Sequence record: OQ850289
From: Escherichia phage vB_EcoM_ULIM3
DNA length: 64,000 bases
Strand: one strand, 5' to 3'
Shown here: piece by piece, positions 12,129 through 58,979 of the stretch
How positions within the stretch are numbered: the stretch's first letter is position 1
Layout of the letters: every line of letters begins with the position of its first letter
The notes under the pieces: generated by a model
What the model saw: only the letters and a program-made list of their open reading frames with translations
What the model was told of the DNA's origin: nothing
The model's database searches: none
Made by a program: the position numbers and the translations under genes

Positions 12129-12458
12129 TTAATCTGCCAACCTTAAATTGAAATTAACACCAAATTTTTCACATACTTCCAACATATACTCAAGGGAGAC
12201 GTTACCAGTGAGATGGATTATGTTGGATACACGAGCCTGAGAGATACCACAAATTTTAGCAACTTGCTCTTGAGAAAGGCCTCTGGATTTAATCTCTCTC
12301 TTAAAACGATGTGCAACGAAGTCTCTCATTTCGTCTACATCCATTGGACAAATATAACTCTCCATTTCAGCCTCTCTATCAGCCTCCCAATCATCTTGTG
12401 GGGCATAAGGGTCAAAAACCTCATTCATCTTTCTTCTTCCGTTTGCGTGAAGTGTCAA
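12129..12458 (-). CDS. putative HTH DNA-binding protein
   Basis: 109 aa; helix-turn-helix-like segment LSQEQVAKICGISQARVSNI; start may be the internal Met (MNEVF). Confidence 0.55.
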   Translation of the reverse strand: MTLHANGRRKMNEVFDPYAPQDDWEADREAEMESYICPMDVDEMRDFVAHRFKREIKSRGLSQEQVAKICGISQARVSNIIHLTGNVSLEYMLEVCEKFGVNFNLRLAD

Positions 12459-20252: not shown

Positions 20253-20424
20253 TTTTACTCCCTCTAAAATCATTAACCTCATACATTACTGCAAAAAATT
20301 ATAAAAAGCAAGTTGACAATGTACTTGACAAGGTGTTAATCTTTGCGAAGTGGGTTTTTACTTAAAAGGTTACTTAACAGTTTAACTATACAGATACTTT
20401 AAAACTCTTAAAAGATTATTTAAT

Positions 20425-20465
20425 AGCTTTTAAAAAGCTTTAAAGTATAACGTATAGAATACGTT
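20425..20465. promoter_or_regulatory. two palindromes in the divergent intergenic region
   Basis: AGCTTTTAAAAAGCT (15 bp) and AACGTAT-AGA-ATACGTT in AT-rich spacer between polymerase and 20510 ORF. Confidence 0.4.
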
Positions 20466-20509
20466 AAGATAAAAGATTAAAACTTAATAGTTACTTAAAA
20501 GAGGCTTAC

Positions 20510-26133: not shown

Positions 26134-27174
26134 ATGGAGAAGTACACATTAACAAAACTTCCCGATTCAGTTACACATGTTTTTATTGACTCTGACAGTA
26201 TTGCCTATAAAGGTGCTTGTGTAGTTGAGAAAGCAAAATATAAATATGTCAATAAACTCACAGCAGAGGAATCTGATTCGTTTGATAATGCAAAAGATGC
26301 TGCAAGATGGTTAGCAGACCAGAGAATCCTTGTGGAAGAGCTTGGCCTGACATTTGATGAAGATGAATGGGAAAGACAGACTTGGAAAGAAGCTAAGAGT
26401 GAGAAAGAAGCTATCATGGCGACTCAACAGGTGCTTCAGGAATGGCTTAAGGTTGTTGGTAAAGAAAGAACTTGGGTGGGTTATTTAACAGAGAAAGGTG
26501 TGCATAAGCATAAAGACATTAAAGGTCTTGAGCACCAATATCAAGGTAACCGTAAAGATGCTGTCACACCAACACACTTAGTTGCTTGTCGTGAATATCT
26601 TCTGTCAAGACCAGAGTTCAAACTCTTAAGGGGTGGCTTCGAAGCCGATTCAATCGTAATTGCTAAAGCTGAAAAGATGGGTAAGAAAGCTGCTCTTATG
26701 AGTATTGACAAAGACCTTCGACAAGCTGAAGGGACTTATTGTATTGATATGACTTATGAAAAGTCACCACTGATTTTTATTGCTGACAACAATGTTGGTG
26801 ATATCTGGGATTGCCCTATCAAATCAAAACCAAAAGCTGCAAAAACAGTTGGTGTAGGTTTTAAATTCTTGTGTTATCAGGCTGTTGCTGGAGATAATGC
26901 AGACAACTACTTTGGCCTTAAAGGTGCTGGTAAAGTAGCTGTGATGAATGCTTTAGATGGTAAAGAGACCTACAAAGAGTGTCTTGATGCTATCTATGAA
27001 CTCTATGCTAAAAAAGAGTCTTACACCTATGTGTCATGGGATGGACAGACTGTTACCAAAACACCATTAGAGTTAATGGAACAACATTTCTGGGTAGCAT
27101 ATCAAGAGAGAAATCCAAAAGATAATTTCTCTTTTAAGAAATATAATTGGGAGCCGTGTATGAATGAAGATTAA
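26134..27174 (+). CDS. putative 5'-3' exonuclease / RNase H (FEN family)
   Basis: 346 aa; acidic clusters THVFIDSDSIA and FEADSIVIAKAEK...MSIDKD resemble T4 RNase H. Confidence 0.55.
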   Translation: MEKYTLTKLPDSVTHVFIDSDSIAYKGACVVEKAKYKYVNKLTAEESDSFDNAKDAARWLADQRILVEELGLTFDEDEWERQTWKEAKSEKEAIMATQQVLQEWLKVVGKERTWVGYLTEKGVHKHKDIKGLEHQYQGNRKDAVTPTHLVACREYLLSRPEFKLLRGGFEADSIVIAKAEKMGKKAALMSIDKDLRQAEGTYCIDMTYEKSPLIFIADNNVGDIWDCPIKSKPKAAKTVGVGFKFLCYQAVAGDNADNYFGLKGAGKVAVMNALDGKETYKECLDAIYELYAKKESYTYVSWDGQTVTKTPLELMEQHFWVAYQERNPKDNFSFKKYNWEPCMNED

Positions 27175-27661
27175 AGGATTTGGCAATTGCCCCACCTATG
27201 GTCATTGGGTATCTTTGTGTGGGGAAGTTGACCCCACTAAACATTTTGGCTTTGTCTATTTAGTATACTGTAAGAAAACCGGACAATATTATATCGGAAA
27301 GAAACAGCTTAATAGTGTGACCAAAAGAAAAGTTGCTGGCAAGACTCGGAAGAAGGTAGTCACTAAGGAAAGTGATTGGATGACTTATGAGACTTCTTCT
27401 GAGTATATTAAAAAAGATATTGAGAGCTTTGGAAAAGAATTTTTTGACTTTTATATTATTCAAACCTACCACACAAAAGGTGGTCTAGTTTATGGTGAAG
27501 CAAACCTTCAACATAAATTCGATGTAATGACAAAAAGGATTGACTCTAAGCTCAGACTCTTCTACAATGCCAATATTGCAGCAATTAAGTTTATTACTAA
27601 AGAAACTTATGAAGATGCTGAAAAAAGAATCCATAAGGTAATGAAAGCAAACTGTGCTTGA
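27164..27661 (+). CDS. putative GIY-YIG endonuclease
   Basis: 165 aa; motif FVYLVYCKKTGQYYIGKK (GIY..YIG). Confidence 0.55.
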   Translation: MKIKGFGNCPTYGHWVSLCGEVDPTKHFGFVYLVYCKKTGQYYIGKKQLNSVTKRKVAGKTRKKVVTKESDWMTYETSSEYIKKDIESFGKEFFDFYIIQTYHTKGGLVYGEANLQHKFDVMTKRIDSKLRLFYNANIAAIKFITKETYEDAEKRIHKVMKANCA

Positions 27662-46066: not shown

Positions 46067-46092
46067 AAGGCTGCTTCGGCGGCCTTTTTTAT
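46067..46092 (+). terminator. intrinsic terminator
   Basis: AGGCTGC-TTCG-GCGGCCT followed by TTTTTT. Confidence 0.65.
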
Positions 46093-46151
46093 TTGTATTT
46101 TGTGCAGAGTGCTGTATAATTGTTGTCACGATAAACTAAACAGGAGAACCA

Positions 46152-49700: not shown

Positions 49701-50486
49701 ATGGGTATTGTAAAAATCATCAAAGGTGATATCTTTGATGCCTTTGATAAAGGCAAATTTGATATCATTGGTCATGGTTGCAACTGTATGAATTTCATGG
49801 GTGCAGGTATTGCAGCAACTATTTCTAAGCGTTATCCAAAAGTGTATGATACTGACACAGAAGTTTACCTGTTTGCAGGTGGCATTCGTCACAAACCCTG
49901 TGAAAATTTACTAGGTAATTTCTCTGTAGCACGTTTAAAACAAGGCCGTATAGCTAACCTTTACACCCAACTTCATACTGGTAAAGATGCCCGATACAGT
50001 GCTTTAGAGTCATCTTTGAAACAGCTTAACAGATACTGTGAAGTTAACCAGTTGAAGAAAGTTGGTCTACCTATGATTGGTGCAGGTATCGGTGGGCTTG
50101 ACCCTCAAGCTGTCACAGTTATCATTAATCAGGTGATGAAGAGTGTAGATGTTTATCTGTATGTCTATGAAGCAAAAATGTATAATGAGTTACACTCAGG
50201 TTGGAAAAACTACTGTGAACCAGAATACTTTGCAGGTGTAGTTGTGTTCACAGATAACGAAGTTACCCTCTTCAGACGAAGAAAAGGTAAGATACATCAA
50301 AGTAACCCTCCGGTTGAAAAGATGTCTCTGAGTAACGCTCTAGTTACCCACCTGTCGAAGAGCAATCACAGGATTGCAGTAACATTTGGCAGTGATGCAG
50401 ATACTTATATCTATGCAAGAACTGATGAGGATATCGAGACAGTTTTCTCTTCACCAGAAGTTACCTTCTTAGACGCAAAGAACTAA
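49701..50486 (+). CDS. putative macro-domain protein (ADP-ribose binding/processing)
   Basis: 261 aa; N-terminal IIKGDIFDA ... IIGHGCNCMNFMGAGIAATISKRYP resembles macro domain signatures. Confidence 0.5.
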   Translation: MGIVKIIKGDIFDAFDKGKFDIIGHGCNCMNFMGAGIAATISKRYPKVYDTDTEVYLFAGGIRHKPCENLLGNFSVARLKQGRIANLYTQLHTGKDARYSALESSLKQLNRYCEVNQLKKVGLPMIGAGIGGLDPQAVTVIINQVMKSVDVYLYVYEAKMYNELHSGWKNYCEPEYFAGVVVFTDNEVTLFRRRKGKIHQSNPPVEKMSLSNALVTHLSKSNHRIAVTFGSDADTYIYARTDEDIETVFSSPEVTFLDAKN

Positions 50487-50557
50487 GAAACTCTGTAGAA
50501 TATTCACAATAGACCAAGCCTTTCTTATCTGGTAAATTTTTCAGGTAAGGAGGCTTT

Positions 50558-50753
50558 TTCATTTCAGAATTGTGCAGGTAGATTTCTATAGAGAAACCTG
50601 TAGAGAAAATATTGAACTCCAAAGAGAAAATTCATTTTCAAACTGTGCAGATAATCTCCAAAGAGCTTTTTCATTTTCAAAACGTGCAGACCCCGCTCAG
50701 GTCGGGCAAGAAAAATCATTTTAGATTTGTGCAGGTAGGTTTTTATAGAGAGC
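50558..50753. repeat. four direct iteron-like repeats
   Basis: Core TCATTT(T/C)(C/A)(A/G)A(A/T)(T/C/A)(T/C)GTGCAG(G/A)(T/C) at ~50558, 50631, 50670, 50714; copies 1 and 4 share ~38 bp. Confidence 0.6.
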
Positions 50754-50761
50754 CAGACCAA

Positions 50762-50792
50762 CCCCTCTCCCCCTCTTACTCCCCCTCTCCCC
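50762..50792 (-). other. G-quadruplex-forming motif (C-rich on + strand)
   Basis: + strand CCCC-TCT-CCCCC-TCTTACT-CCCCC-TCT-CCCC, i.e. four G4-5 tracts on - strand. Confidence 0.55.
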
Positions 50793-50914
50793 AAAAGTCA
50801 AGAGAAAAATTTGTAGCGGATTGAAAAATAATTCTTGATTTGTGTTCTGTTTTGTGGTAGTCGTGTGCGCCCGTTTCATTACAGTTTTGCCAAAAATATT
50901 TTTAAAATTTTTTC

Positions 50915-50974
50915 TTGACTCTTTGAACGTGGTTATCTAGTATTTGCATCAACGGGGAGGGAATGACCTTCCCC
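50915..50974 (+). promoter_or_regulatory. early promoter cassette 1 with 5' leader stem-loop
   Basis: TTGACT-17-TAGTAT, then GGGGAGGG-AATGA-CCTTCCCC hairpin and conserved RBS (CTGGAG-9-ATG). Confidence 0.6.
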
Positions 50975-51006
50975 ACTAAATAAAGTCCTAAACTGGAGGT
51001 TCAAAA

Positions 51007-51387
51007 ATGGCATATCGCGCACCTAAATTCATCAATAAAGACAACTTTCGCAACGCACTGGAGAAGTCACTTGATGAAAATTTTAAAGGTAACATTATCG
51101 TTGTTCACGCATTCAATTTTAAGTATGATGTAAACGGGAATAGAATCAACCATTACACGGCAACCATGTTAGATGGTACACTATCAAGTGAAAAAGCCGT
51201 ACTGAATGCACTAGCAGGACGCGGAAAAGTATTAGTAAGATGCGATAAGCGACGTTATCAGGGTGGCGCATATGGTTATGATGATGCTGTTTATCATCTT
51301 GAAAATATGGGCTATAAAGTAGAAAAAGCTGGGGTATCGCAAATCATCGGGAGCGATGGTTATGTAACAATCTTCAAAATTAACTGA
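51007..51387 (+). CDS. hypothetical early protein
   Basis: 126 aa ORF directly after promoter cassette. Confidence 0.55.
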   Translation: MAYRAPKFINKDNFRNALEKSLDENFKGNIIVVHAFNFKYDVNGNRINHYTATMLDGTLSSEKAVLNALAGRGKVLVRCDKRRYQGGAYGYDDAVYHLENMGYKVEKAGVSQIIGSDGYVTIFKIN

Positions 51388-51388
51388 T

Positions 51389-51477
51389 AAAGTACTTTAC
51401 AAGGGGCTTATAGTTCAATAGAGTAAGCCCCAGATAAAGAGCTTTACCACTCAATCCTAAATTGGAGAATCTGAAAA
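51389..51477 (+). promoter_or_regulatory. class B intergenic element, copy 1
   Basis: AGTACTTTACAAGGGGCTTA..TAAGCCCCAGATAAAGAGCTTTACCACT..GGAGA..ATG; hairpin with TTTACA-17-TAGAGT embedded. Confidence 0.5.
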
Positions 51478-51771
51478 ATGGCTATTATCAAAAACGTTGT
51501 AATTACTGCAAAAACTCGTGATGACGCTCGCGTTATGGCTAAAAAGTTATGCGGGAAAGTTGTTGACAATGGGAAAAAATCTGCTGTAAGATGGGGCGTA
51601 AAGGTTGATAAACAGTTGAAGTTAAAAAATTCACCGATAAACCTTTTTACATGTGTAAACACTATCGGGAAGACAAATGTATACACGAAAAAGGCATACA
51701 TTAGACGCGTAGCATTAACATCCCCCATTCGTACAATGAGAGGTTATGCAAAGCTGAAAATTAACAAATAA
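51478..51771 (+). CDS. hypothetical early protein
   Basis: 97 aa ORF after class B element. Confidence 0.5.
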   Translation: MAIIKNVVITAKTRDDARVMAKKLCGKVVDNGKKSAVRWGVKVDKQLKLKNSPINLFTCVNTIGKTNVYTKKAYIRRVALTSPIRTMRGYAKLKINK

Positions 51772-51856
51772 AGTACTTTACAGGGGGCTTAAAAGTTGAT
51801 ATCTTAAGCCCCAGATAAAGAGCTTTACCACTTAATCCTAAACTGGAGATTCAAAA
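51770..51856 (+). promoter_or_regulatory. class B intergenic element, copy 2
   Basis: Same conserved element with GGGGGCTTAA..TTAAGCCCC hairpin. Confidence 0.5.
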
Positions 51857-52369
51857 ATGAAAACTGTAGACGCTACCTTTGAAGTTGTAAAAGAAAAATT
51901 TTCCATCATCTACGAAGCGGTAAATTGCTACGAAGCAAGCCATAATCTTGATAATTGGGAGTTTACAGATGACCATCAAGGCGGTGTGACTGTTAAAAAT
52001 CCTAACTGTCAGCGTAATGATTTTAAATATGCAATCCCTTTGCATTACAGCCTTAAACAGCTTTCAAGTGACTATGCAAAACAAGGCCGGGAAAATCCAT
52101 CAAAAGAGGCTTACGCAAGCTTACAAAAAGAACTAGAAAGAGATTTAGAGGCTTCAGAGTACAACCTTGCCGCGAAAGTTGTGGATGCAAATGGTCAAAC
52201 AATTTTAGACAGTTTTTATATTGGCTACGCTTTTGATTGGTGCTATAGTGACGGCGATGATTTAGAGGATAGACTAAAAGAAGAGGTGAACAATTCAGAC
52301 GCAGAATCTGAAGTATTAGAACGTTTGGAATCACTAAAAGATTCAGTGATGAATATCTTTAAGAACTAA
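51857..52369 (+). CDS. hypothetical early protein
   Basis: 170 aa acidic ORF. Confidence 0.55.
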   Translation: MKTVDATFEVVKEKFSIIYEAVNCYEASHNLDNWEFTDDHQGGVTVKNPNCQRNDFKYAIPLHYSLKQLSSDYAKQGRENPSKEAYASLQKELERDLEASEYNLAAKVVDANGQTILDSFYIGYAFDWCYSDGDDLEDRLKEEVNNSDAESEVLERLESLKDSVMNIFKN

Positions 52370-52374
52370 ATAGA

Positions 52375-52461
52375 TTTCTTTACACGGGGTTATCAAGCTG
52401 GTAGGATAGCCCCAGATAAAGAGATTTATCAAATAAAGCCCTTAAACTAGGAGATTCTAAA
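52375..52461 (+). promoter_or_regulatory. class B intergenic element, copy 3 (divergent)
   Basis: GGGGTTATC..GATAGCCCC hairpin then AGATAAAGAG and RBS. Confidence 0.45.
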
Positions 52462-52758
52462 ATGAAATTATCAAATCAAGTGCGTGAAAATCTAAGCAAA
52501 TTACTCAACAAAATTGATTTCATTGAAACATCAAGGAATAATCATGATGTTATGGAATGGTTACACGGCAAAATAAAAGGCCGTCGTGTAGTGATTTGCT
52601 TATGGAACAGTTGCAGGGAGTATAAAAAACCTGTATTGCAAGTTAATATCTATGATGATACTTTTAAAAGTCCTGTAAAGTCTAAAAGCGATTTATTAGA
52701 ATCCTATGAGATAACTGTAAATGGCAAAGTATCACGTAAAGAGGAAACACCATGTTAA
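52462..52758 (+). CDS. hypothetical early protein
   Basis: 98 aa ORF. Confidence 0.5.
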   Translation: MKLSNQVRENLSKLLNKIDFIETSRNNHDVMEWLHGKIKGRRVVICLWNSCREYKKPVLQVNIYDDTFKSPVKSKSDLLESYEITVNGKVSRKEETPC

Positions 52759-53084
52759 TGACTGGTATCACTGCAATCATTGCCATTTTCGCGCTATATA
52801 AGGCATATAAAGCCTATAATCTAGCAAATAAGGCAATCACACAGCAGGTTAGTAATAGCCTTGTAGAAAGCTTTCTAGGGCGCCTCAGTGATGAGCAAAT
52901 AAAGCGGCTAGAGATGAGCTTCAGATATAAAGCGAAAACCTATCAGATAAGTGACATCTTCAAAGATAATTTTCAGTTAGTTGATGATTATAATTCTCTG
53001 ATAAATGCTTTAAATGTCAGTGACTTAAAAGACTACTACGCTGTAATTGTTCAAGAATTGAGCAAACGAAAACAAAACTGTTGA
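52752..53084 (+). CDS. hypothetical early protein with N-terminal TM
   Basis: 110 aa ORF; hydrophobic N-terminus; stop overlaps -35 of next cassette. Confidence 0.5.
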   Translation: MLMTGITAIIAIFALYKAYKAYNLANKAITQQVSNSLVESFLGRLSDEQIKRLEMSFRYKAKTYQISDIFKDNFQLVDDYNSLINALNVSDLKDYYAVIVQELSKRKQNC

Positions 53085-53140
53085 CACTGGTTTTTAGATA
53101 GATTAAATTACACATCAACGGGGAGGGAATGACCTTCCCC
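53081..53140 (+). promoter_or_regulatory. early promoter cassette 2
   Basis: TTGACA-17-TAAATT then GGGGAGGG..CCTTCCCC hairpin; ~95 bp near-identical to 53942-54037. Confidence 0.6.
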
Positions 53141-53172
53141 ACTAAATAAAGTCCTAAACTGGAGATTCCAAA

Positions 53173-53445
53173 ATGTATACTACTAACAACGGTCGCACCT
53201 TAAACGTAACCCTACGCCACTATGTGAACGGTGTAATGCACTTCGAGGATTTACAAGCTGAACAGCACATTTTGGATTGGCAAGTTGCAGGACTCCAAAA
53301 AACTGCTACAGGATACGGGAAAAAGATTCCAACCAGTTGGAAAGTATACTACGAAGGACGTTTGCGCAGAATTTATCAAGATGTGCAAAGCAATAGCGCA
53401 TCGAGTTACATTATAGTAAAAGGCAAAAAACTGCATTTAATGTAA
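53173..53445 (+). CDS. hypothetical early protein
   Basis: 90 aa ORF. Confidence 0.5.
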   Translation: MYTTNNGRTLNVTLRHYVNGVMHFEDLQAEQHILDWQVAGLQKTATGYGKKIPTSWKVYYEGRLRRIYQDVQSNSASSYIIVKGKKLHLM

Positions 53446-53516
53446 AGTACTTTACAAGGGGCTTATAGTTCGATAAAGTAAGCCCCAGATAAAGAGCTTT
53501 ACTACTCAATCCTAAA
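53445..53516 (+). promoter_or_regulatory. class B intergenic element, copy 4
   Basis: GGGGCTTATAGTTCGATAAAGTAAGCCCC hairpin and conserved flanks. Confidence 0.5.
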
Positions 53517-53936
53517 TTGGAGAACTTAAAAATGGCTATTAATAACCGTGAATTATCAATGTTAAAAGCACGTTTGACCGTTAATCGAATCAACATTATG
53601 ACATCATCAGCGCCTGATGAGACATTGCACAACATTATCGGAAAGATTCAAAGCGTTATTTTAGACGTTGAAAACGTAAAAAGTTCATTGGCTGACGTTG
53701 CAGCAGGTATCACGCTAGACGGTGCGCAATATGAAATGTCCGACATGTTAGGCAAATCAAAGGTAATGAATAAAGAGCTTGATTTAAAGATGTTCCGATT
53801 TGCTGTTAAAGTATGGCTATCCGTCGAGTATGACGCTAATTTTGCAATCGCTGATTTCTTTGCCACTTGGTTACAACGTAATTTGACAAATCACGATTTT
53901 CGTGATGTCTGTGATGCAATTTATGCAGAACTCTAA
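53517..53936 (+). CDS. hypothetical early protein
   Basis: 139 aa ORF. Confidence 0.55.
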   Translation: MENLKMAINNRELSMLKARLTVNRINIMTSSAPDETLHNIIGKIQSVILDVENVKSSLADVAAGITLDGAQYEMSDMLGKSKVMNKELDLKMFRFAVKVWLSVEYDANFAIADFFATWLQRNLTNHDFRDVCDAIYAEL

Positions 53937-53945
53937 AAAATTTTG

Positions 53946-54005
53946 TTGACACTGGTTTTTAGATAGATTAAATTACACATCAACGGGGAGGGAATGACCT
54001 TCCCC
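53946..54005 (+). promoter_or_regulatory. early promoter cassette 3
   Basis: TTGACA-17-TAAATT then hairpin; duplicate of cassette 2. Confidence 0.6.
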
Positions 54006-54037
54006 ACTAAATAAAGTCCTAAACTGGAGATTCAAAA

Positions 54038-54241
54038 ATGGCTATTATTAATGGTTTAACCATTGAAACTACACACATCAAAGATATCAAAGTTGGTGAT
54101 ATAGTCCTTTCCCACGGCGTAGAAAAAACTGTCACTGCAAAGGATATCAAAGAGGATTCTTTCATGGGTAGGACTCTCTTCGGTGATTCTTATTGCTTAG
54201 GCTATCTTGCAGTTTTAAAAGTTGTCAAAAATAACAAATAA
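54038..54241 (+). CDS. hypothetical early protein
   Basis: 67 aa ORF. Confidence 0.45.
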   Translation: MAIINGLTIETTHIKDIKVGDIVLSHGVEKTVTAKDIKEDSFMGRTLFGDSYCLGYLAVLKVVKNNK

Positions 54242-54327
54242 AGTACTTTACAAGGGGCTTAAAAGTTGATAACTTAAGCCTCAGATAAAGAGCTTTACCA
54301 CTAAATCCTAAACTGGAGATTCTAAAA
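54241..54327 (+). promoter_or_regulatory. class B intergenic element, copy 5
   Basis: Conserved element, hairpin with one mismatch (GCCTC). Confidence 0.45.
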
Positions 54328-54576
54328 ATGATGAACTACTTTAACATTCCCGATACCTGTAGATTATTGACACAAGAAGAAAATTTGGGTAAACCTTTCA
54401 TTTACCACATGCCAGATAACACGGCAAAAACTTATAGTTACAATGTTAACCGTTTCACCGCATACGCTGCAAAGAACGGCTATAGGTTGGTTACTCAAAA
54501 AGTAATGCTGGTTACAACTGCTGGCGAGATTCCTACAGTTGCAGTCAAACTAGTTTTCTCAAAGAAAGTTAAATAA
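54328..54576 (+). CDS. hypothetical early protein
   Basis: 82 aa ORF. Confidence 0.5.
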   Translation: MMNYFNIPDTCRLLTQEENLGKPFIYHMPDNTAKTYSYNVNRFTAYAAKNGYRLVTQKVMLVTTAGEIPTVAVKLVFSKKVK

Positions 54577-54661
54577 AGCACTTTACAAGGGGCTTATAGT
54601 CCGATAAAGTAAGCCCCAGATAAAGAGCTTTACCACTAAATCCTAAACTGGAGATTCAAAA
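54577..54661 (+). promoter_or_regulatory. class B intergenic element, copy 6
   Basis: GGGGCTTATAGTCCGATAAAGTAAGCCCC hairpin and conserved flanks. Confidence 0.5.
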
Positions 54662-55204
54662 ATGAAATGTTTTCACGGAACTACTCAAGAAAATTTCCTC
54701 AACCTGATTAATAACGGTGATAAACCATCGGGCGCATGGAATTGTTCGGATATGGACGGCAATTTTTACGTGTATCCAGAAAATAAAATCTATGGCGACG
54801 ATGATGAAGAGATAACATCGGAAGGTATTCAGCAAGCTCTAGGCAATGCCACTATTACGGCGGCCTTCCAGATGAAAACCCAAAATATTGTTATCTTAGA
54901 ACTCGATATTCCAGAGGATGAGCTAAATGATGATTATTCTTGTGATAATATGTCGAGTGTAGCAAGTTTTACAGAGTACTTTGATGTAAATTGGATTAAA
55001 AAGGTCTATACAACAGAGTTTAACGCTATGTATTCGCCTTTTTGTCTTCCTTCACTGGATAACCCAAATATGAACTATCTTGATGAGACATTAGAACTAC
55101 TTGCTAAAAGTGTTCAACAGTCGGACAGTATTCAGGTTTTTTGTGACATCATGGATACACTGACAGGAAACATTGCAGAAGAGGATTTAAAGAGCTTTTT
55201 CTAA
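54662..55204 (+). CDS. hypothetical early protein
   Basis: 180 aa acidic ORF, followed by terminator. Confidence 0.55.
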   Translation: MKCFHGTTQENFLNLINNGDKPSGAWNCSDMDGNFYVYPENKIYGDDDEEITSEGIQQALGNATITAAFQMKTQNIVILELDIPEDELNDDYSCDNMSSVASFTEYFDVNWIKKVYTTEFNAMYSPFCLPSLDNPNMNYLDETLELLAKSVQQSDSIQVFCDIMDTLTGNIAEEDLKSFF

Positions 55205-55235
55205 AAACCTATGCAATAACCTTATAAACACTGAT

Positions 55236-55257
55236 TAGCCCCTCACAGGGGCTTTTA
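55236..55257 (+). terminator. intrinsic terminator
   Basis: AGCCCCT-CACA-GGGGCT followed by TTT. Confidence 0.55.
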
Positions 55258-55270
55258 GAGGGCTTAAATC

Positions 55271-55504
55271 ATGCTTACAACCGTTTACCTTATCCTTTCT
55301 ATTTGTAATGGCCATTCATGTGATTTTAAAGGGCTTGAGGAGTTCACAGGAAGTAAAGAAAATGCTATTCAAGTTTGCCAGATAGCAAGACAAGACTATC
55401 CCGCTAGTGATGATATACAATGTTACTTTAAGACAGAAGATGAAGACGGTATCTATTTTGACAGCGTAGATGGTCAGTATGAAATTATCATTGAAAAAGA
55501 CTAG
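55271..55504 (+). CDS. hypothetical early protein
   Basis: 77 aa ORF. Confidence 0.45.
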   Translation: MLTTVYLILSICNGHSCDFKGLEEFTGSKENAIQVCQIARQDYPASDDIQCYFKTEDEDGIYFDSVDGQYEIIIEKD

Positions 55505-55561
55505 ACAAGCCTGATAAAAATCTGTAAATTGTCAATCAACGGGGAGGGAATGACCTTCCCC
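55502..55561 (+). promoter_or_regulatory. early promoter cassette 4
   Basis: TAGACA-17-TAAATT (TGn extended -10) then GGGGAGGG..CCTTCCCC hairpin. Confidence 0.55.
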
Positions 55562-55595
55562 ACTAAGTACAATCCTTAAACTAGGAGATTCAAAA

Positions 55596-55937
55596 ATGGC
55601 TTATGTAACCGTAATTACCGATAAAGAAAATTCATCTTGGTCAACTCAAGTAAGTGATAAGATGTCACCTATGCAGTGCCTAAAATACTTTGAGCAGTGG
55701 AATAAAGGCGAGGACACAAGCCCCTTTCAAGTGATGCAGATTATCCATGTAGACAACGAAGGGAATAAAACGGTTTTAAATAGTGAGTACTACGCAAGCC
55801 GTTTTGAAACGAGAAGTAAAACAATGAAGCTTTTACGTGAATCCGGTTACTCCCATATCGCCGCGCTAATCTGGGATGACCTGCTAAAAAGTCAGCGTAT
55901 CAGCTATGTAAAACCTGAAAAAATATTCATCAGTTAA
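55596..55937 (+). CDS. hypothetical early protein
   Basis: 113 aa ORF. Confidence 0.5.
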   Translation: MAYVTVITDKENSSWSTQVSDKMSPMQCLKYFEQWNKGEDTSPFQVMQIIHVDNEGNKTVLNSEYYASRFETRSKTMKLLRESGYSHIAALIWDDLLKSQRISYVKPEKIFIS

Positions 55938-56065
55938 TCAATAACTTACAAAAAACTTTTAAAAAAGTGTTGACAATACCCATTGACATTGGTAACTTTG
56001 TTCGAGGGGGTTATCTAAAAGGGATTCACTTAAAAGATTCTTTATAGATAAGCTCAAAAAATTAC

Positions 56066-56124
56066 TTGCAATCAACTATCAAAACAAGTAAATTACTAAT
56101 CAACGGGAAGGCAATAACCTCCCC
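56066..56124 (+). promoter_or_regulatory. early promoter cassette 5 (variant hairpin)
   Basis: TTGCAA-17-TAAATT then GGGAAGG-CAATAA-CCTCCCC hairpin. Confidence 0.55.
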
Positions 56125-56156
56125 ACTAAATAAAGTCCTAAACTGGAGATTCTAAA

Positions 56157-56687
56157 ATGAACAAATTTCAAGCTATCAACTTCATTCGTTCAAATGCTGT
56201 AATGTCTAAGCCTGTAAAAGATACATACGAATTCCGTTGTAATGGGGTACATTTCGCAACAATCACCAAATCAGAAAACGGGGCTTATTACGTTCATCGT
56301 CGTAATGTCTCAACCGTTGTAGTCTCTCACTTTATGCAAGCTGTAGCGGAATTATTACCGTTATTCTTAGAGATTTATCTAGATGAGTGTAAAAACGTTC
56401 ACAACCACGTTAAAAGCCTTTTAAACGGTTATAAAATGGCTTATGAACGCTCTATCAAGTCCTTAAACAAGTTTTACAATGCACCTGCAAATACTGTTTC
56501 AATGGCTTATGATGTAAACGGTGAGTTAGTTAGTCTCTTTAAAGTGGAAGAAATTAAGCTGTATAATTTACGTCCTAGTGGTTACTCTAAGACTCTTGGT
56601 GAAGGTTTATCATTTAATATCAAGAACTTAGAAAAAACTTTAAAAGACATTGAAAAAGATATTGACGAGATAATCAAAAGTCTGTAA
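56157..56687 (+). CDS. hypothetical early protein
   Basis: 176 aa ORF. Confidence 0.55.
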   Translation: MNKFQAINFIRSNAVMSKPVKDTYEFRCNGVHFATITKSENGAYYVHRRNVSTVVVSHFMQAVAELLPLFLEIYLDECKNVHNHVKSLLNGYKMAYERSIKSLNKFYNAPANTVSMAYDVNGELVSLFKVEEIKLYNLRPSGYSKTLGEGLSFNIKNLEKTLKDIEKDIDEIIKSL

Positions 56688-56721
56688 ATTGTCAATCAAC
56701 GGGGAGGGAATGACCTTCCCC
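56662..56721 (+). promoter_or_regulatory. early promoter cassette 6
   Basis: TTGACG-17-TAAATT then GGGGAGGG..CCTTCCCC hairpin. Confidence 0.6.
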
Positions 56722-56753
56722 ACTAAATAAAGTCCTAAACTGGAGTTATCAAG

Positions 56754-57017
56754 ATGGAAAACGTAGAATTAACCACACTTTTACAAATTGCAACTGACAA
56801 AGAAGATGTAGCACTGTTTCACCGTATCGAAAGCGATTTATTCAATGGTGAAATCATCAAAGAATCTTATGAAGTTGTCGGATTCAAAGATGGTAAAGCG
56901 TTTGGCTTTTTTGACCTCGACAAAGGCAACGCTGTCACAAAGTATGATGTTGTATCTTGTGAGATTCTTACAAAATACAACGAAAAAAGGCTTGCAACAT
57001 ACGCCAATATGCAGTAA
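56754..57017 (+). CDS. hypothetical early protein
   Basis: 87 aa ORF. Confidence 0.5.
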   Translation: MENVELTTLLQIATDKEDVALFHRIESDLFNGEIIKESYEVVGFKDGKAFGFFDLDKGNAVTKYDVVSCEILTKYNEKRLATYANMQ

Positions 57018-57049
57018 ATTACTAATCAACGGGAGGCGATAACCTCCCC
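56992..57049 (+). promoter_or_regulatory. early promoter cassette 7 (variant hairpin)
   Basis: TTGCAA-17-TAAATT then GGGAGG-CGATAA-CCTCCC hairpin. Confidence 0.55.
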
Positions 57050-57083
57050 ACTAAATAAAACCCTTAAACTAGGAGATTCAAAA

Positions 57084-57332
57084 ATGGCAACTATCCGCGC
57101 TACTGTCAATGCCTATGGCTGTTATACTCTGGACGTTAAATTCGATATTGGTGGAACTGATGAGTGTTTTTCATTAGTGAAGACAGTTATCAAACAAGTT
57201 ATTCCAGATTATAACCCTACTGATGACTTCTGGAAAGATGCTGTAAAAGAGGCATTAAACGACGAGCATCACTATCATTACTGGGGTGACTTGATTGTTT
57301 CCCTGTACTACAATAAACAAGGTTACAACTAA
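57084..57332 (+). CDS. hypothetical early protein
   Basis: 82 aa ORF followed by tandem hairpins. Confidence 0.5.
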   Translation: MATIRATVNAYGCYTLDVKFDIGGTDECFSLVKTVIKQVIPDYNPTDDFWKDAVKEALNDEHHYHYWGDLIVSLYYNKQGYN

Positions 57333-57342
57333 TCGACGCAAC

Positions 57343-57397
57343 GGGGCTAAATAGCCCCAGATACCTCAACAGCCCCTGTTTAAAGGGGCTTTTTTAC
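57343..57397 (+). terminator. tandem stem-loops ending in an intrinsic terminator
   Basis: GGGGCT-AAAT-AGCCCC then AGCCCCT-GTTTAA-AGGGGCT followed by TTTTTT. Confidence 0.7.
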
Positions 57398-57399
57398 GT

Positions 57400-58940
57400 C
57401 TATTGAATCCTTATACAATCCCTTTCCAGAATCTTATCAGACCTTAAAAGCAATAACTCTATAGTCTACTCTATAACCTCTTATCAAATCAACTTAAATA
57501 AAAGCCAATAACCCCAGAAAGGGGATGGCCCATTTAAACGCTCTATAAAGCTCTATAACAGCCTTATCAACCTAACTTAAGGGATTGCATTACCTCACCC
57601 TAAAAAGCCCTTTATAAAGCTTCTCAGAGCCTTAAAAGAATCTTATAAGGGTGTAAGCTTTATCATCTCATTAGTATTCTTGTGAATAACTAAACAACCC
57701 CTTGATAGTCACTAAAAAGTATGTTATAGGGGGCTTTAAAGTTACTTTGAAGTAGCTTAAAAGTTACGTAAAAGAGGCTATAAAGTTACGTAAATGCTAG
57801 CCCCCTTAACATTTTCTTAACAATTTCTTAACAATCCCTACATAGTTATGCTTTTAAGGCACTTGTTAGCAACTTGTTAGCCCCTTGTTAAATCTCTGTT
57901 AAGACCACGTAAAAGCCTTGTAAGAGTCTTTGACATAGCCTTAAAAGCTCCTGTAAAGCCCTATAAAGAGGTATCTGTACAGTTGGGGGATAGATACTAG
58001 GAAGAGGTTTAAAAGAGGCTATAAAGAGCTATAGAGAGCTTTTAAGAGGTATGTTTAAGGAATCACTAAGAAGCAAAGGGAACGATAAGAAAAGAGTAGT
58101 GACCATGTTAATAGCTTGTTAAAAAGATTAAACACTTGTTAAAAACTTGTTAATTATCTTAACAAAATAACTCTTAAAAATTAACTTGTTAGCTCTTGTT
58201 AGTCATCTGTTAAGAGACTATAAAGACCATGTATCGACTGTTAAGAACTTGTTACAGCCTTGTTAGTTCTGTTAAGAATCTGTTAAGACCTTTGAAGAGT
58301 TGTTAAGAAGATGTGAGAGCTGTTAAGAGATTGTTAAGGATATTTTAAAATTTTGCAAAGTACTTGTAAGGGAGCTGTTAAGGGCTACCAAGCAGATATA
58401 CATCTTCTACAGATATTTTTGAGTTCCTTCAAAGACCCTAAAAAATGACTTGATAGTCCTATTTTATAAAAATTTTAAGATTCTGAATAATTACCTATAC
58501 AGTCTTTTAAAAATACAGGCAGAAACAGGCTTATAAGATACCTTGTTAGTACCGTGTTAGACCTTGTGAGATAAGGTCTGTAAAGATATTCCTGTTAAGT
58601 TTGTTAAAACAGTCTATATAGAGGCTTAGTATTCCCTAGTGAACACCTATAGAGAGTGTCATAGGTAACATAGAGATTAAGAGGTGTATAGGAGCTTCTA
58701 AGAAGGTGTAGAGAGATGGTTAAGGTGATTGTATAGGTTGTTAAGAAGGCTTGTTAGAAGAGTGTTTAGAAGGGCTATACAGAGGGGCTATTAAGACCAC
58801 TAGATAGTTACTAAGATACTATATAGTACTATATAACTATATATAGAGAGTAAGATTAAGAAGGTTGTTAAGAAGGGTAGATATTTTATTCACATATGAT
58901 GGTGACCCAGAGGTTGGGACAACCGATAAAATTTTATAAA
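57400..58940. repeat. ORF-free region dense in short degenerate motifs
   Basis: No ORF >60 aa on either strand; >25 copies of (C/T)TGTTA(A/G)(G) and CTATAAAG-like motifs; purine-rich + strand; between convergent units. Confidence 0.7.
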
Positions 58941-58968
58941 AATTAAAAAGCCCCCGATTAAGGAGGCT
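58938..58968 (-). terminator. putative intrinsic terminator for the minus-strand cluster
   Basis: Minus-strand reading: GAGCCTCC-TTAATC-GGGGGCT followed by T-rich run. Confidence 0.45.
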
Positions 58969-58979
58969 CTTAAGATATT

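What the first reader, a model, noticed from the sequence alone, without database searches (positions are those of the whole stretch)
50550..50800. Iteron array adjacent to a G-quadruplex/i-motif tract
Four direct repeats with core TCATTT..TGTGCAG(G/A)T at ~40-45 bp spacing are followed by CCCC-TCT-CCCCC-TCTTACT-CCCCC-TCT-CCCC, which gives four G4-5 runs on the minus strand. The two long ORFs the track draws here (50564-50794 -, 50612-50824 +) are probably artefacts of the repeats. The arrangement suggests an origin-like or regulatory locus at the boundary between the metabolism block and the early-gene block.
Basis: seen in the sequence. Interest (0 to 1): 0.65.

Follow-up and report, generated by a model that had tools for sequence, protein, structure and literature searches.

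The report
Conserved repeat array heading early genes
A non-coding gap in this Felix O1-type phage holds four copies of a ~20-base motif kept in every related phage genus, so it is very probably a docking array for a DNA-binding protein that acts on transcription or replication, while the G-quadruplex tract beside it is real here but missing from most sequenced relatives.

Summary
The window is a Felixounavirus (99.8% to phage ULIM8). The four direct repeats are real: cores at 50559, 50632, 50671 and 50716, + strand, spaced 73/39/45 bp. Their bipartite motif, W5-TCATTTT-N5-YGTGCA, clusters nowhere else in two complete genomes. The array sits in the same gap, after the macro-domain gene's terminator and before the first early promoters, in every Ounavirinae lineage examined. 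Cores stay near-invariant while spacers and neighbouring genes diverge.

The overlapping ORFs are artefacts. No RNA structure, covariation or Rfam family fits. A5 and T5 swap freely in front of the core, which argues for recognition of double-stranded DNA.

The C-rich tract (50762-50792) is the only canonical G4 motif in 64 kb and a near-perfect mirror repeat. It is not conserved: 38 records carry it, 140 carry an unrelated allele. Six of eight lineages share only a C-rich, G-poor (+) strand, which looks rut-like.

No initiator, DnaA boxes or skew switch support an origin, and the spacing is not iteron-like.

Best reading: an undescribed protein-binding array forming a transcriptional boundary/operator element (~0.35). 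An origin is the close rival (~0.25). The binding protein is unknown.

The parts
50520..50553 (+). Intrinsic terminator ending the rightward rIIA...macro-domain transcription unit. Its T-run is the W5 tract of repeat unit 1.
   Evidence: 13-pair stem followed by CTTTTTCATT. wV8 and KhF3 annotate the same terminator. A terminator in front of the array is also found in phiEa104.
50547..50584 (+). Repeat unit 1 (core TCATTTCAGAATTGTGCAG, 50559-50577)
   Evidence: 40.7 bits. Conserved in 31 unique arrays.
50620..50657 (+). Repeat unit 2 (core TCATTTTCAAACTGTGCAG, 50632-50650). Absent in the 3-copy variants (phiWec174, BPS17L1, Si3 type).
   Evidence: (43.6 bits).
50659..50696 (+). Repeat unit 3 (core TCATTTTCAAAACGTGCAG, 50671-50689)
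   Evidence: (39.1 bits).
50704..50741 (+). Repeat unit 4 (core TCATTTTAGATTTGTGCAG, 50716-50734)
   Evidence: 43.3 bits. Nearly invariant over 31 arrays.
50762..50792 (.). Polypyrimidine mirror repeat, C-rich on (+). It is a canonical G4 motif on (-), is H-DNA capable, and is the core of a 78-nt C>G stretch (C 28, G 9). This is the variable 'allele A'.
   Evidence: Allele A is in 38 records and allele B in 140.
50793..50880 (.). Near-invariant 90-bp segment. It contains a degenerate fifth unit (50823-50844) overlapping a rightward promoter-like site (TTGATT 50835-50840, 17 nt, TG-n-TAGTCG 50858-50863). It also contains a leftward -35-like TTGACT (50801-50796 on the - strand) with TAAGAG 17 nt downstream.
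   Evidence: Conservation. Unit-5 similarity: (family D2). The promoter reading is my inspection of the sequence and is not validated.
50915..50943 (+). First consensus-type early promoter (TTGACT-17-TAGTAT). It heads the hairpin/RBS module of the first early gene (ATG at 51007).
   Evidence: The same site is found in Mijalis. Module repeats are shown.
46077..46114 (+). Weak solitary copy of the unit (17.7 bits). It lies directly after the rIIB terminator and overlaps a TTTGTA-17-TATAAT promoter.
   Evidence: The identical site is present in phage H12.

Best explanation
The four units are head-to-tail binding sites on double-stranded DNA for one sequence-specific protein. That protein is not identified; it may be a conserved phage core protein or a host factor common to Enterobacterales.

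The units belong to a composite boundary module kept throughout the Ounavirinae: intrinsic terminator, then the repeat array, then a C-rich/G-poor tract, then promoters.

Proposed mechanism: the protein occupies the four asymmetric sites, each with two conserved blocks about one helical turn apart. This builds a nucleoprotein block at the junction between the long rightward rII/nucleotide-metabolism unit and the terminal early-gene block. The block acts in cis on transcription across the junction. Together with the terminator and a rut-like tract it would back up termination of read-through. Through the degenerate fifth unit, which overlaps a -35 element, it could also control the first promoters.

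Shown: existence, uniqueness, deep conservation, absence of coding potential, absence of RNA structure.
Inferred: protein binding, and the direction and nature of the effect on transcription.
For: Identity and synteny:
- The window is a Felixounavirus. The array sits in the same gap after the macro-domain gene in Felixounavirus, Suspvirus, Mooglevirus, Kolesnikvirus, a Hafnia phage and an IMG/VR lineage, with 3-5 copies always in the same orientation.

Selection on the cores:
- Cores are near-invariant over 31 unique arrays while inter-core spacers vary.
- Between the window and phiEa104 the cores are 14-18/18 identical, whereas the adjacent macro protein is only 44% identical over 154 aa.

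Uniqueness:
- TCATTTT-N5-YGTGC (<=1 mismatch) occurs only at the array in the complete genomes of H12 and phiEa104. 0.6-0.9 chance sites are expected.

A DNA-level element, not RNA or protein:
- A5 and T5 interchange in front of the core.
- Fold z-scores are +1.0 and -0.08. The alignment fold has one compensatory pair and an unfavourable covariation term. Rfam finds nothing.
- ORFs are not conserved.

Link to transcription:
- Unit 1 starts in the terminator's T-run.
- The only extra copy in the genome also abuts a terminator and overlaps a promoter.
- A degenerate fifth unit overlaps the -35 of a highly conserved promoter-like site.
- The order terminator-array-promoter recurs in phiEa104. In Mijalis and Zyzzx the scan found no terminator, and it confirmed the downstream promoter only in Mijalis.
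- A C>G stretch follows the array in 6 of 8 lineages, including ones with no G4 motif.
Against: - No binding protein is identified. The only recognisable phage DNA-binding protein, an XRE-type HTH at 12129-12458 (-), is absent from the Erwinia and Hafnia phages that have the array.
- The other ~14 early promoters carry no copy of the motif. A regulator acting here would control only this junction, which is an odd use for something so deeply conserved.
- Allele B lacks the C>G stretch.
- Intrinsic terminators normally suffice, and no roadblock array of this kind is documented in a lytic phage.
- A single-locus array of direct repeats is also exactly what an origin looks like.
Confidence: 0.35

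Rival explanations
1. Replication origin. The units are iterons for a phage initiator. The flanking promoters and AT-rich stretches provide transcriptional activation and unwinding, and the triplex/G4-capable tract is an accessory.
For: - Single locus per genome.
- 3-5 same-orientation asymmetric repeats conserved across the subfamily.
- Copy number varies without loss of the element.
- Located in a 520-bp non-coding gap in a dense genome.
- AT-rich stretches of 20-25% GC at 50800-50860 and 50880-50940, with promoters alongside.
- Such deep motif conservation fits a binder among the conserved replication proteins.
- Origin architecture follows the review PMC4980987.
Against: - Spacing is 37-75 bp and unphased, not about 22 bp.
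- No Rep/O/DnaA-like initiator appears among 20 proteins scanned. The primase-helicase is T7 gp4-like (Toprim + DnaB_C), a type of replisome that initiates without iterons.
- No DnaA box lies within 6 kb.
- GC skew does not change at 50.6 kb. The cumulative minimum is at about 20.5 kb.
- That minimum coincides with a very AT-rich divergent gap between the DNA polymerase and primase-helicase blocks, with its own TTACTTAA repeats. This is a more conventional origin candidate.
- The C tract is not conserved.
Confidence: 0.25
2. T5-like injection-stop or membrane-anchoring signal. The array marks the inner edge of the first DNA to enter, the right-terminal ~8% carrying the many-promoter early block.
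For: - The direct terminal repeat maps to 57800-58389, so the array lies 7.6 kb from the right end. In Pr103Blw it lies 6.7 kb from the end of an 88.4-kb record.
- The T5 stop signal lies at 7.9% of the genome, in an untranslated repeat region better conserved than the neighbouring genes (Davison, bioRxiv 10.1101/866236).
- In Kolesnikvirus every unit ends in a one-mismatch DnaA box, CTATGCACA or TTATGCACG.
Against: - Two-step entry has never been reported for Felix O1-type phages.
- Which end enters first is unknown.
- The T5 hallmarks (paired DnaA boxes, long inverted repeats, palindromes) are absent here.
- In Felixounavirus the DnaA-like part of the motif is degenerate (ACCTGCACA).
Confidence: 0.06
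3. Tandem weak promoters or a repeat-containing non-coding RNA transcribed through the array, possibly from the leftward TTGACT at 50801-50796.
For: - Units resemble the upstream half of a promoter-like site (family D2).
- Promoter-like matches fall inside arrays: one (-) in the window, two (-) in phiEa104, two (+) inside the Zyzzx units.
- The leftward TTGACT is invariant across both alleles.
Against: - The promoter-like matches differ in strand and register between genera. None is found in the Mijalis array, and counts are within about 1-2 sd of shuffles.
- There is no fold signal, no covariation and no Rfam hit.
- The A5/T5 swap is hard to reconcile with an RNA motif.
Confidence: 0.08
4. 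The non-B DNA tract (G-quadruplex, i-motif or triplex) is the functional heart of the locus, and the repeats merely flank it.
For: - It is the only canonical G4 motif in 64 kb, with G4Hunter 2.36.
- It is 29/31 mirror-symmetric and all pyrimidine but one base (reading).
- It is retained in Suspvirus and Mooglevirus.
Against: - It is replaced by an unrelated sequence in 140 records against 38 that keep it.
- There is no canonical motif in phiEa104, Zyzzx or allele B.
- What is widely shared (6 of 8 lineages, not allele B) is only C>G asymmetry.
Confidence: 0.05
5. Neutral relic of a tandem duplication of the terminator/promoter junction, with no function. Alternatively, a real small protein gene on either strand.
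For: - The units are about 38-bp head-to-tail copies in Erwinia phages, with spacing 37/37/39.
- Several database records annotate ORFs here.
Against: - A relic would not keep the cores near-invariant while the spacers and the flanking protein diverge to 44% identity.
- The annotated ORFs disagree on strand. Frames are broken by -2, -4 and -37 nt indels and by stops, and substitutions run 57/75/75, 55/59/43 and 31/43/42 over codon positions.
Confidence: 0.04

Closest known systems
Iterons of plasmid and lambdoid-phage replication origins (RK2 oriV, F ori2, lambda ori)
   Same: Several asymmetric direct repeats of about 20 bp in one orientation, at a single locus per replicon, next to AT-rich DNA and promoters. 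Copy number is tolerant to change.
   Different: Iterons are contiguous at about 22 bp and helically phased. They come with a Rep/O initiator gene and usually DnaA boxes (PMC4980987). Here spacing is 37-75 bp, no initiator is detectable, there are no DnaA boxes, and the replisome is T7-like.
Bacteriophage T5 injection stop signal region (repeat region 3 of the left terminal repeat)
   Same: An untranslated, repeat-rich region about 8% from a genome end, at the inner edge of a block of host-promoter-driven early genes. It is conserved better than the neighbouring genes (10.1101/866236).
   Different: The T5 region is 1.2-1.6 kb, lies inside a 10-kb terminal repeat, is dominated by inverted repeats and palindromes, and carries eight paired DnaA boxes. 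Here there is a 200-bp array of one direct repeat, outside the 0.6-kb terminal repeat.
Protein-bound polar barrier/terminator arrays (Tus-Ter; TTF-I 'Sal box' repeats downstream of mouse rRNA genes). Cited from my own knowledge; not checked here.
   Same: Tandem, same-orientation asymmetric protein sites placed after the end of one transcription unit and before the next promoter, with one copy abutting the promoter.
   Different: These belong to different kingdoms or act on replication forks. No such system is documented in a lytic phage, and no sequence similarity exists.
Repeated early-promoter modules of Felix O1-like and PAK_P1-like phages (wV8 DR_1-DR_9; 41-nt repeats)
   Same: Short non-coding repeats in the early region of the same phage group. 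Array units share an A-tract and a TGTG with the upstream half of a promoter-like site (PMC4309531).
   Different: The modules are dispersed, one per gene, and carry good -35/-10 hexamers. The array units are clustered, lack consistent hexamers, and have a different motif. They are not listed among the Felix O1 repeats (PMC3185647).
Rho-utilisation (rut) sites, e.g. lambda tR1 (for the C-rich tract only)
   Same: About 80 nt that is C-rich, G-poor and unstructured on the RNA-like strand, downstream of a gene end.
   Different: It lies behind an efficient-looking intrinsic terminator, so transcription into it is unproven. It is absent in allele B.

Membership tests
Iteron-type replication origin | Three or more direct repeats of about 17-22 bp in one orientation at a single locus | tested here: met
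   Four units in the window, 3-5 in relatives, and unique in two complete genomes.
Iteron-type replication origin | Contiguous, helically phased spacing (about 21-23 bp) | tested here: not met
   73/39/45 in the window; 37/37/39 in Erwinia phages; 67/43/54 in the Hafnia phage.
Iteron-type replication origin | Cognate initiator gene adjacent to or containing the repeats | tested here: not met
   The flanking genes are a macro-domain protein and variable small early genes. No Rep/O/DnaA-like domain appears in 20 proteins scanned. Unknown proteins remain possible.
Iteron-type replication origin | Adjacent AT-rich unwinding element, DnaA/IHF sites | tested here: inconclusive
   AT-rich stretches at 50800-50860 and 50880-50940 coincide with promoter upstream regions. 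No DnaA box lies within 6 kb.
Iteron-type replication origin | Strand-composition switch at the locus | tested here: not met
   No change in GC skew at 50.6 kb; the minimum is at about 20.5 kb. This is weak evidence, because skew follows transcription in phages.
Iteron-type replication origin | Initiation of DNA synthesis at the site | not testable with these tools
   Needs marker-frequency sequencing or 2D gels.
T5-type injection stop signal | Conserved untranslated repeat region at the inner edge of the first-entering ~8% of the genome | tested here: inconclusive
   The position (7.6 kb from the right end) and the conservation fit. Which end enters first is unknown.
T5-type injection stop signal | Paired DnaA boxes within long inverted repeats and palindromes | tested here: not met
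   Only Kolesnikvirus units carry near-consensus boxes.
G-quadruplex / i-motif element | Four runs of at least 3 G with loops of at most 7 nt | tested here: met
   50762-50792 on the minus strand; G4Hunter 2.36.
G-quadruplex / i-motif element | Conservation of the folding potential in relatives | tested here: not met
   Allele B is in 140 records against 38 for allele A. No canonical motif in allele B, phiEa104 or Zyzzx.
G-quadruplex / i-motif element | Folding in vitro or in vivo | not testable with these tools
   Needs CD, thioflavin T or chemical probing.
Rho-utilisation site (C tract only) | About 78 nt with C well above G, on unstructured RNA | tested here: met
   C 28 / G 9 in the window, in the top 0.5% of (+) strand windows. 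C 24-30 / G 1-12 in 5 other lineages. Not met in allele B, at 14-16 / 11-12. Fold z = +1.0.
Rho-utilisation site (C tract only) | Transcribed, with Rho-dependent 3' ends downstream | not testable with these tools
   Needs term-seq with and without bicyclomycin.
Sigma-70 promoter array | -35/-10 hexamers at a fixed register in every unit and lineage | tested here: not met
   Matches differ in strand and register between genera, and counts are close to shuffle expectation.
Structured non-coding RNA | Stable fold, covariation or an Rfam match | tested here: not met
Protein-coding gene | Open frame and codon-position substitution bias conserved in relatives | tested here: not met

The most novel reading that the evidence does not exclude
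Felix O1-type myoviruses might deliver their DNA in two steps, as T5 does. The conserved array, 7-8 kb (about 8%) inside the right end, would then be the cis-acting stop or anchoring signal. It would hold back the rest of the genome until products of the many-promoter terminal early block have disarmed the host.
Probability: 0.06. Interest if true: 0.8.

Novelty: new variant of a known kind. Interest (0 to 1): 0.45.

Why it matters
Felix O1-type phages are classical Salmonella typing phages and common therapy and biocontrol candidates. Neither their replication origin nor the way they time gene expression is known; the Felix O1 genome paper says so explicitly (PMC3185647).

This array is better conserved than the neighbouring genes I compared and occurs once per genome. 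It gives a defined 200-bp handle for finding the protein that binds it. It also allows a direct test of whether that protein governs the early-block boundary, replication start or DNA entry.

Practically, many database records annotate spurious 'hypothetical proteins' across it. Engineering projects that use this intergenic gap as a neutral insertion site may hit an essential cis element.

Tried and rejected
- Coding ORFs: rejected.
- Known RNA family or structured RNA: none found.
- Terminal repeat or packaging site: the terminal repeat maps 7 kb away, at 57800-58389.
- DnaA-box cluster: none nearby.
- XRE HTH protein as the binder: absent from the Erwinia and Hafnia phages that have the array.
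- Pfam/PHROGs scans of 20 neighbouring, early and replication-block proteins for an initiator or other DNA binder: only that HTH and a T7 gp4-like primase-helicase were found.
- Host-chromosome or satellite copies of the array: none in Enterobacterales among 185,579 species genomes. All 39 hits were unrelated tandem repeats.
- Wider distribution: viral and metagenome scans returned only Ounavirinae contigs plus unrelated satellites and tandem repeats.
- Consistent sigma-70 promoters within units: not consistent between genera.
- From memory only, I compared the motif with CRISPR repeats (I-E, I-F) and with IHF, Fis, CRP, Fur, OmpR, marbox, ops, boxA, sigma-54/32/E and Ter consensus sequences. 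None fits the two conserved blocks. These are recollections, not tests.
- Literature: neither the Felix O1 genome paper nor the wV8 record's repeat annotation lists this array. The papers on UAB_Phi87, PAK_P1-like phages and the Bas63 essentiality screen, as far as read, add nothing on it. No supplementary data were held for the Bas63 screen.

Full report
**What the window is.** A 901-bp query around the finding matches 291 phage records, best at 99.8% to Escherichia phage vB_EcoM_ULIM8 and VpaE1_ev78. All strong hits are Felixounavirus or other Ounavirinae. The finding lies in a 520-bp gap (50487-51006). Upstream is a 261-aa macro-domain protein (49701-50486, Pfam Macro). Downstream is a 126-aa early protein (51007-51387). 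An intrinsic terminator (50520-50553) closes the upstream unit.

**The observation.** Spacing is 73, 39 and 45 bp. A 38-nt weight matrix built from aligned copies scores 39-44 bits at these four places. The next best site in the window scores 17.7, at 46077. The C-rich tract at 50762-50792 is the only canonical four-run G4 motif in 64 kb. Its G4Hunter score is 2.36, above the maximum of 2.00 in 30 shuffles. By direct reading it is also a 29/31 mirror repeat of pyrimidines, so an intramolecular triplex is as plausible as a quadruplex.

**Conservation.** The 344-bp core region matches 292 phage records, and 241 of them cover at least 80% of it. I read the homologous gap in the following lineages:
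- Felixounavirus: wV8, KhF3, FO1a, JH2, phiWec174, BPS17L1, H12
- Suspvirus: SUSP2
- Mooglevirus: Mijalis, ESh21
- Kolesnikvirus: Erwinia phage phiEa104 and Salmonella phage ST-3
- the Hafnia phage Zyzzx

In every case the array follows the macro-domain gene and is on the same strand.
- There are usually four copies. The phiWec174/BPS17L1/Si3 type has three, and one IMG/VR lineage (L034) has five.
- The shared motif is bipartite: W5-TCATTTT-N5-YGTGC. It is followed by AGGTA in Felix/Moogle/Susp, ATAG in Erwinia phages and L034, and TTATAA in the Hafnia phage.
- The W5 tract is A5 in some units and T5 in others.
- Over 31 unique Felix/Moogle/Susp arrays the cores are almost invariant while the segments between them vary.
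- Between the window and phiEa104 the only nucleotide similarity BLAST detects in the 344-bp core region lies in repeats 2-4 (query positions 145-247). The macro protein next door is only 44% identical over 154 residues.

**Uniqueness.** TCATTTT-N5-YGTGC with at most one mismatch occurs only at the array in the complete genomes of H12 (4 sites) and phiEa104 (4 sites plus 2 scattered). 0.6-0.9 sites are expected by chance. A two-copy pattern scan gave these results:
- IMG/VR: Ounavirinae-sized contigs plus a few unrelated tandem repeats.
- JGI metagenomes: Ounavirinae contigs plus unrelated satellites.
- 185,579 species genomes: no Enterobacterales chromosome.

The array is therefore a signature of this subfamily and is not borrowed from the host.

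**Not coding, not a structured RNA.**
- In the frames of the three ORFs that overlap the array, substitutions fall 57/75/75, 55/59/43 and 31/43/42 on codon positions 1/2/3.
- wV8, SUSP2 and phiWec174 carry indels of 2, 4 and 37 nt. Moogle, Erwinia and Hafnia homologues are full of stops.
- Database annotators disagree on strand.
- Folding gives z = +1.0 for the + strand and -0.08 for the - strand.
- The alignment fold has one compensatory pair and an unfavourable covariation term.
- Rfam gives nothing, even at E <= 10.
- The free exchange of A5 and T5 preserves a narrow minor groove in duplex DNA but not an RNA sequence. This points to recognition of double-stranded DNA.

**The C tract is not part of the conserved element.** A 57-nt probe for the window's allele finds 38 records. 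The probe for the alternative allele (GGTAGGTGGGTGTAGGTGGGGATGTCGCC...) finds 140. BLAST's low-complexity filter may depress the first count.
- Canonical G4 motifs persist in Suspvirus and Mooglevirus.
- They are absent from allele B, phiEa104 (G4Hunter 1.6) and Zyzzx (1.28).
- What six of eight lineages share is a C-rich, G-poor (+) strand over about 78 nt: C 24-30 against G 1-12. Zyzzx has C 28 and G 1 with no G4 motif.
- That is the signature of a Rho-loading site rather than of a quadruplex. Allele B lacks it, and transcription into it is unproven.

**Genome context.**
- The 581-bp terminal repeat annotated in Pr103Blw (PhageTerm; PMC8303462) maps to 57800-58389.
- UAB_Phi87 has an experimentally determined 608-bp repeat (PMC4837284).
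- The array is therefore 7.6 kb inside the right physical end. In Pr103Blw it is 6.7 kb from the end of an 88.4-kb record.
- Between the array and the repeat lie about 15 small genes of unknown function. Most of them have their own promoter/hairpin/RBS module.
- None of those modules carries the motif.
- Downstream of the C tract, 50793-50880 is almost invariant across Felix/Moogle/Susp. It contains a degenerate fifth unit overlapping TTGATT-17-(TG)n-TAGTCG, and a leftward TTGACT. These promoter readings are my own inspection.
- The weak copy at 46077 also starts in a terminator's T-run and overlaps TTTGTA-17-TATAAT.

**Origin hypothesis.**

For:
- a single locus
- same-orientation repeats
- AT-rich neighbours
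- promoters alongside

Against:
- Spacing is unphased and two to three times the iteron norm.
- No initiator was recognised among 20 proteins. The primase-helicase is T7 gp4-like.
- No DnaA box lies within 6 kb.
- Skew does not change at the locus.
- A very AT-rich divergent gap at 20283-20509, with TTACTTAA repeats, sits at the cumulative skew minimum between the polymerase and primase-helicase blocks. It is the more conventional candidate.

I put this hypothesis at about 0.25.

**Boundary/operator hypothesis.**

For:
- unit 1 is fused to the terminator
- the only other copy lies at another terminator-promoter junction
- the fifth unit lies on a -35 element
- the terminator-array-promoter order recurs in phiEa104; the scan did not confirm a terminator in Mijalis or Zyzzx
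- the rut-like tract is widely conserved

Against:
- no binder is known
- the only recognisable HTH protein is missing from the Erwinia and Hafnia phages
- a regulator with a single target is unusual

I put this hypothesis at about 0.35. The general statement that this is a cis-acting protein-binding array I put at about 0.8.

**Other readings.**
- A T5-like injection stop signal is suggested by the ~8% position and by conservation exceeding that of the neighbouring genes (10.1101/866236). The T5 hallmarks are missing and two-step entry is unreported for these phages (0.06).
- Promoter-like matches inside arrays differ in strand and register between genera and are near chance.

**Literature.** The Felix O1 genome paper lists twelve direct repeats of 24 bp or more, none of them this array. 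It states that temporal regulation is unknown. The wV8 record annotates an ORF over the array, and its repeat features (DR_1 to DR_9) are the downstream promoter modules. I found no paper describing the array or an origin for this group.

**Verdict.** This is a real, deeply conserved and apparently undescribed cis element of the Ounavirinae. 'Iteron-like' is a fair description of its form, but origin membership fails several tests. The G4 tract is a striking but dispensable neighbour. Function remains to be shown.

Noticed in passing
window 1-64000: GATC is completely absent from the 64-kb window on both strands. About 182 pattern matches are expected from dinucleotide-preserving shuffles. This is total avoidance of the Dam/MboI/Sau3AI/MutH site.
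   Followed up: no
window 57333-58979 (terminal repeat 57800-58389): The longest stretch without an ORF of at least 75 aa in the window (1.6 kb) contains the ~590-bp direct terminal repeat mapped from Pr103Blw. Rightward early genes and leftward genes converge on it.
   Followed up: partly
window 20283-20509: A very AT-rich divergent gap lies between the DNA polymerase (-) and the primase-helicase block (+), at the cumulative GC-skew minimum. It has three TTACTTAA(A/C)AG repeats and is a conventional origin candidate.
   Followed up: partly
window 46077-46120: A solitary weak copy of the array unit lies directly after the rIIB terminator and overlaps a TTTGTA-17-TATAAT promoter. It is identical in phage H12.
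   Followed up: partly
L004 1198-1335 (Erwinia phage phiEa104): In Kolesnikvirus each unit ends, on the opposite strand, in a one-mismatch DnaA box (CTATGCACA x3, TTATGCACG). In L034 the variable base falls at the N position of the box. Felixounavirus units do not fit (ACCTGCACA).
   Followed up: partly
window 50793-50880: This 90-bp non-coding segment is almost invariant across Felixounavirus, Suspvirus and Mooglevirus, even where the adjacent tract is replaced by another allele.
   Followed up: partly
window 51400-57100: Early genes are preceded by two kinds of repeated promoter module. In one, TTTACA-17-TAGAGT is embedded in a GGGGCTTA...TAAGCCCC hairpin. The other is TTGACA-17-TAAATT followed by a GGGGAGGGAATGACCTTCCCC hairpin. 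They correspond to wV8 features DR_1 to DR_9.
   Followed up: no
L002 2200-2610 (phage KhF3 and about 10 others): A ~480-bp insertion relative to the window adds two small early genes (62 and 73 aa) right after the first early promoter. The array is untouched.
   Followed up: yes
window 12129-12458 (-): The only recognisable DNA-binding protein found is an XRE-type HTH regulator. It is present in 260 Felix/Susp/Moogle records but in no Erwinia or Hafnia phage.
   Followed up: yes
window 27164-27661 (+): A SegE-like GIY-YIG homing endonuclease lies next to the exonuclease gene.
   Followed up: no
L024 6255-6321 (IMG/VR 10-kb contig): An unrelated-looking contig carries two 50-nt tandem units, GGAGGCAATTTAAAAAYCAATCATTTTAACATAGTGCAGTG, whose core resembles the motif, upstream of a promoter and RBS. 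This may be chance.
   Followed up: no
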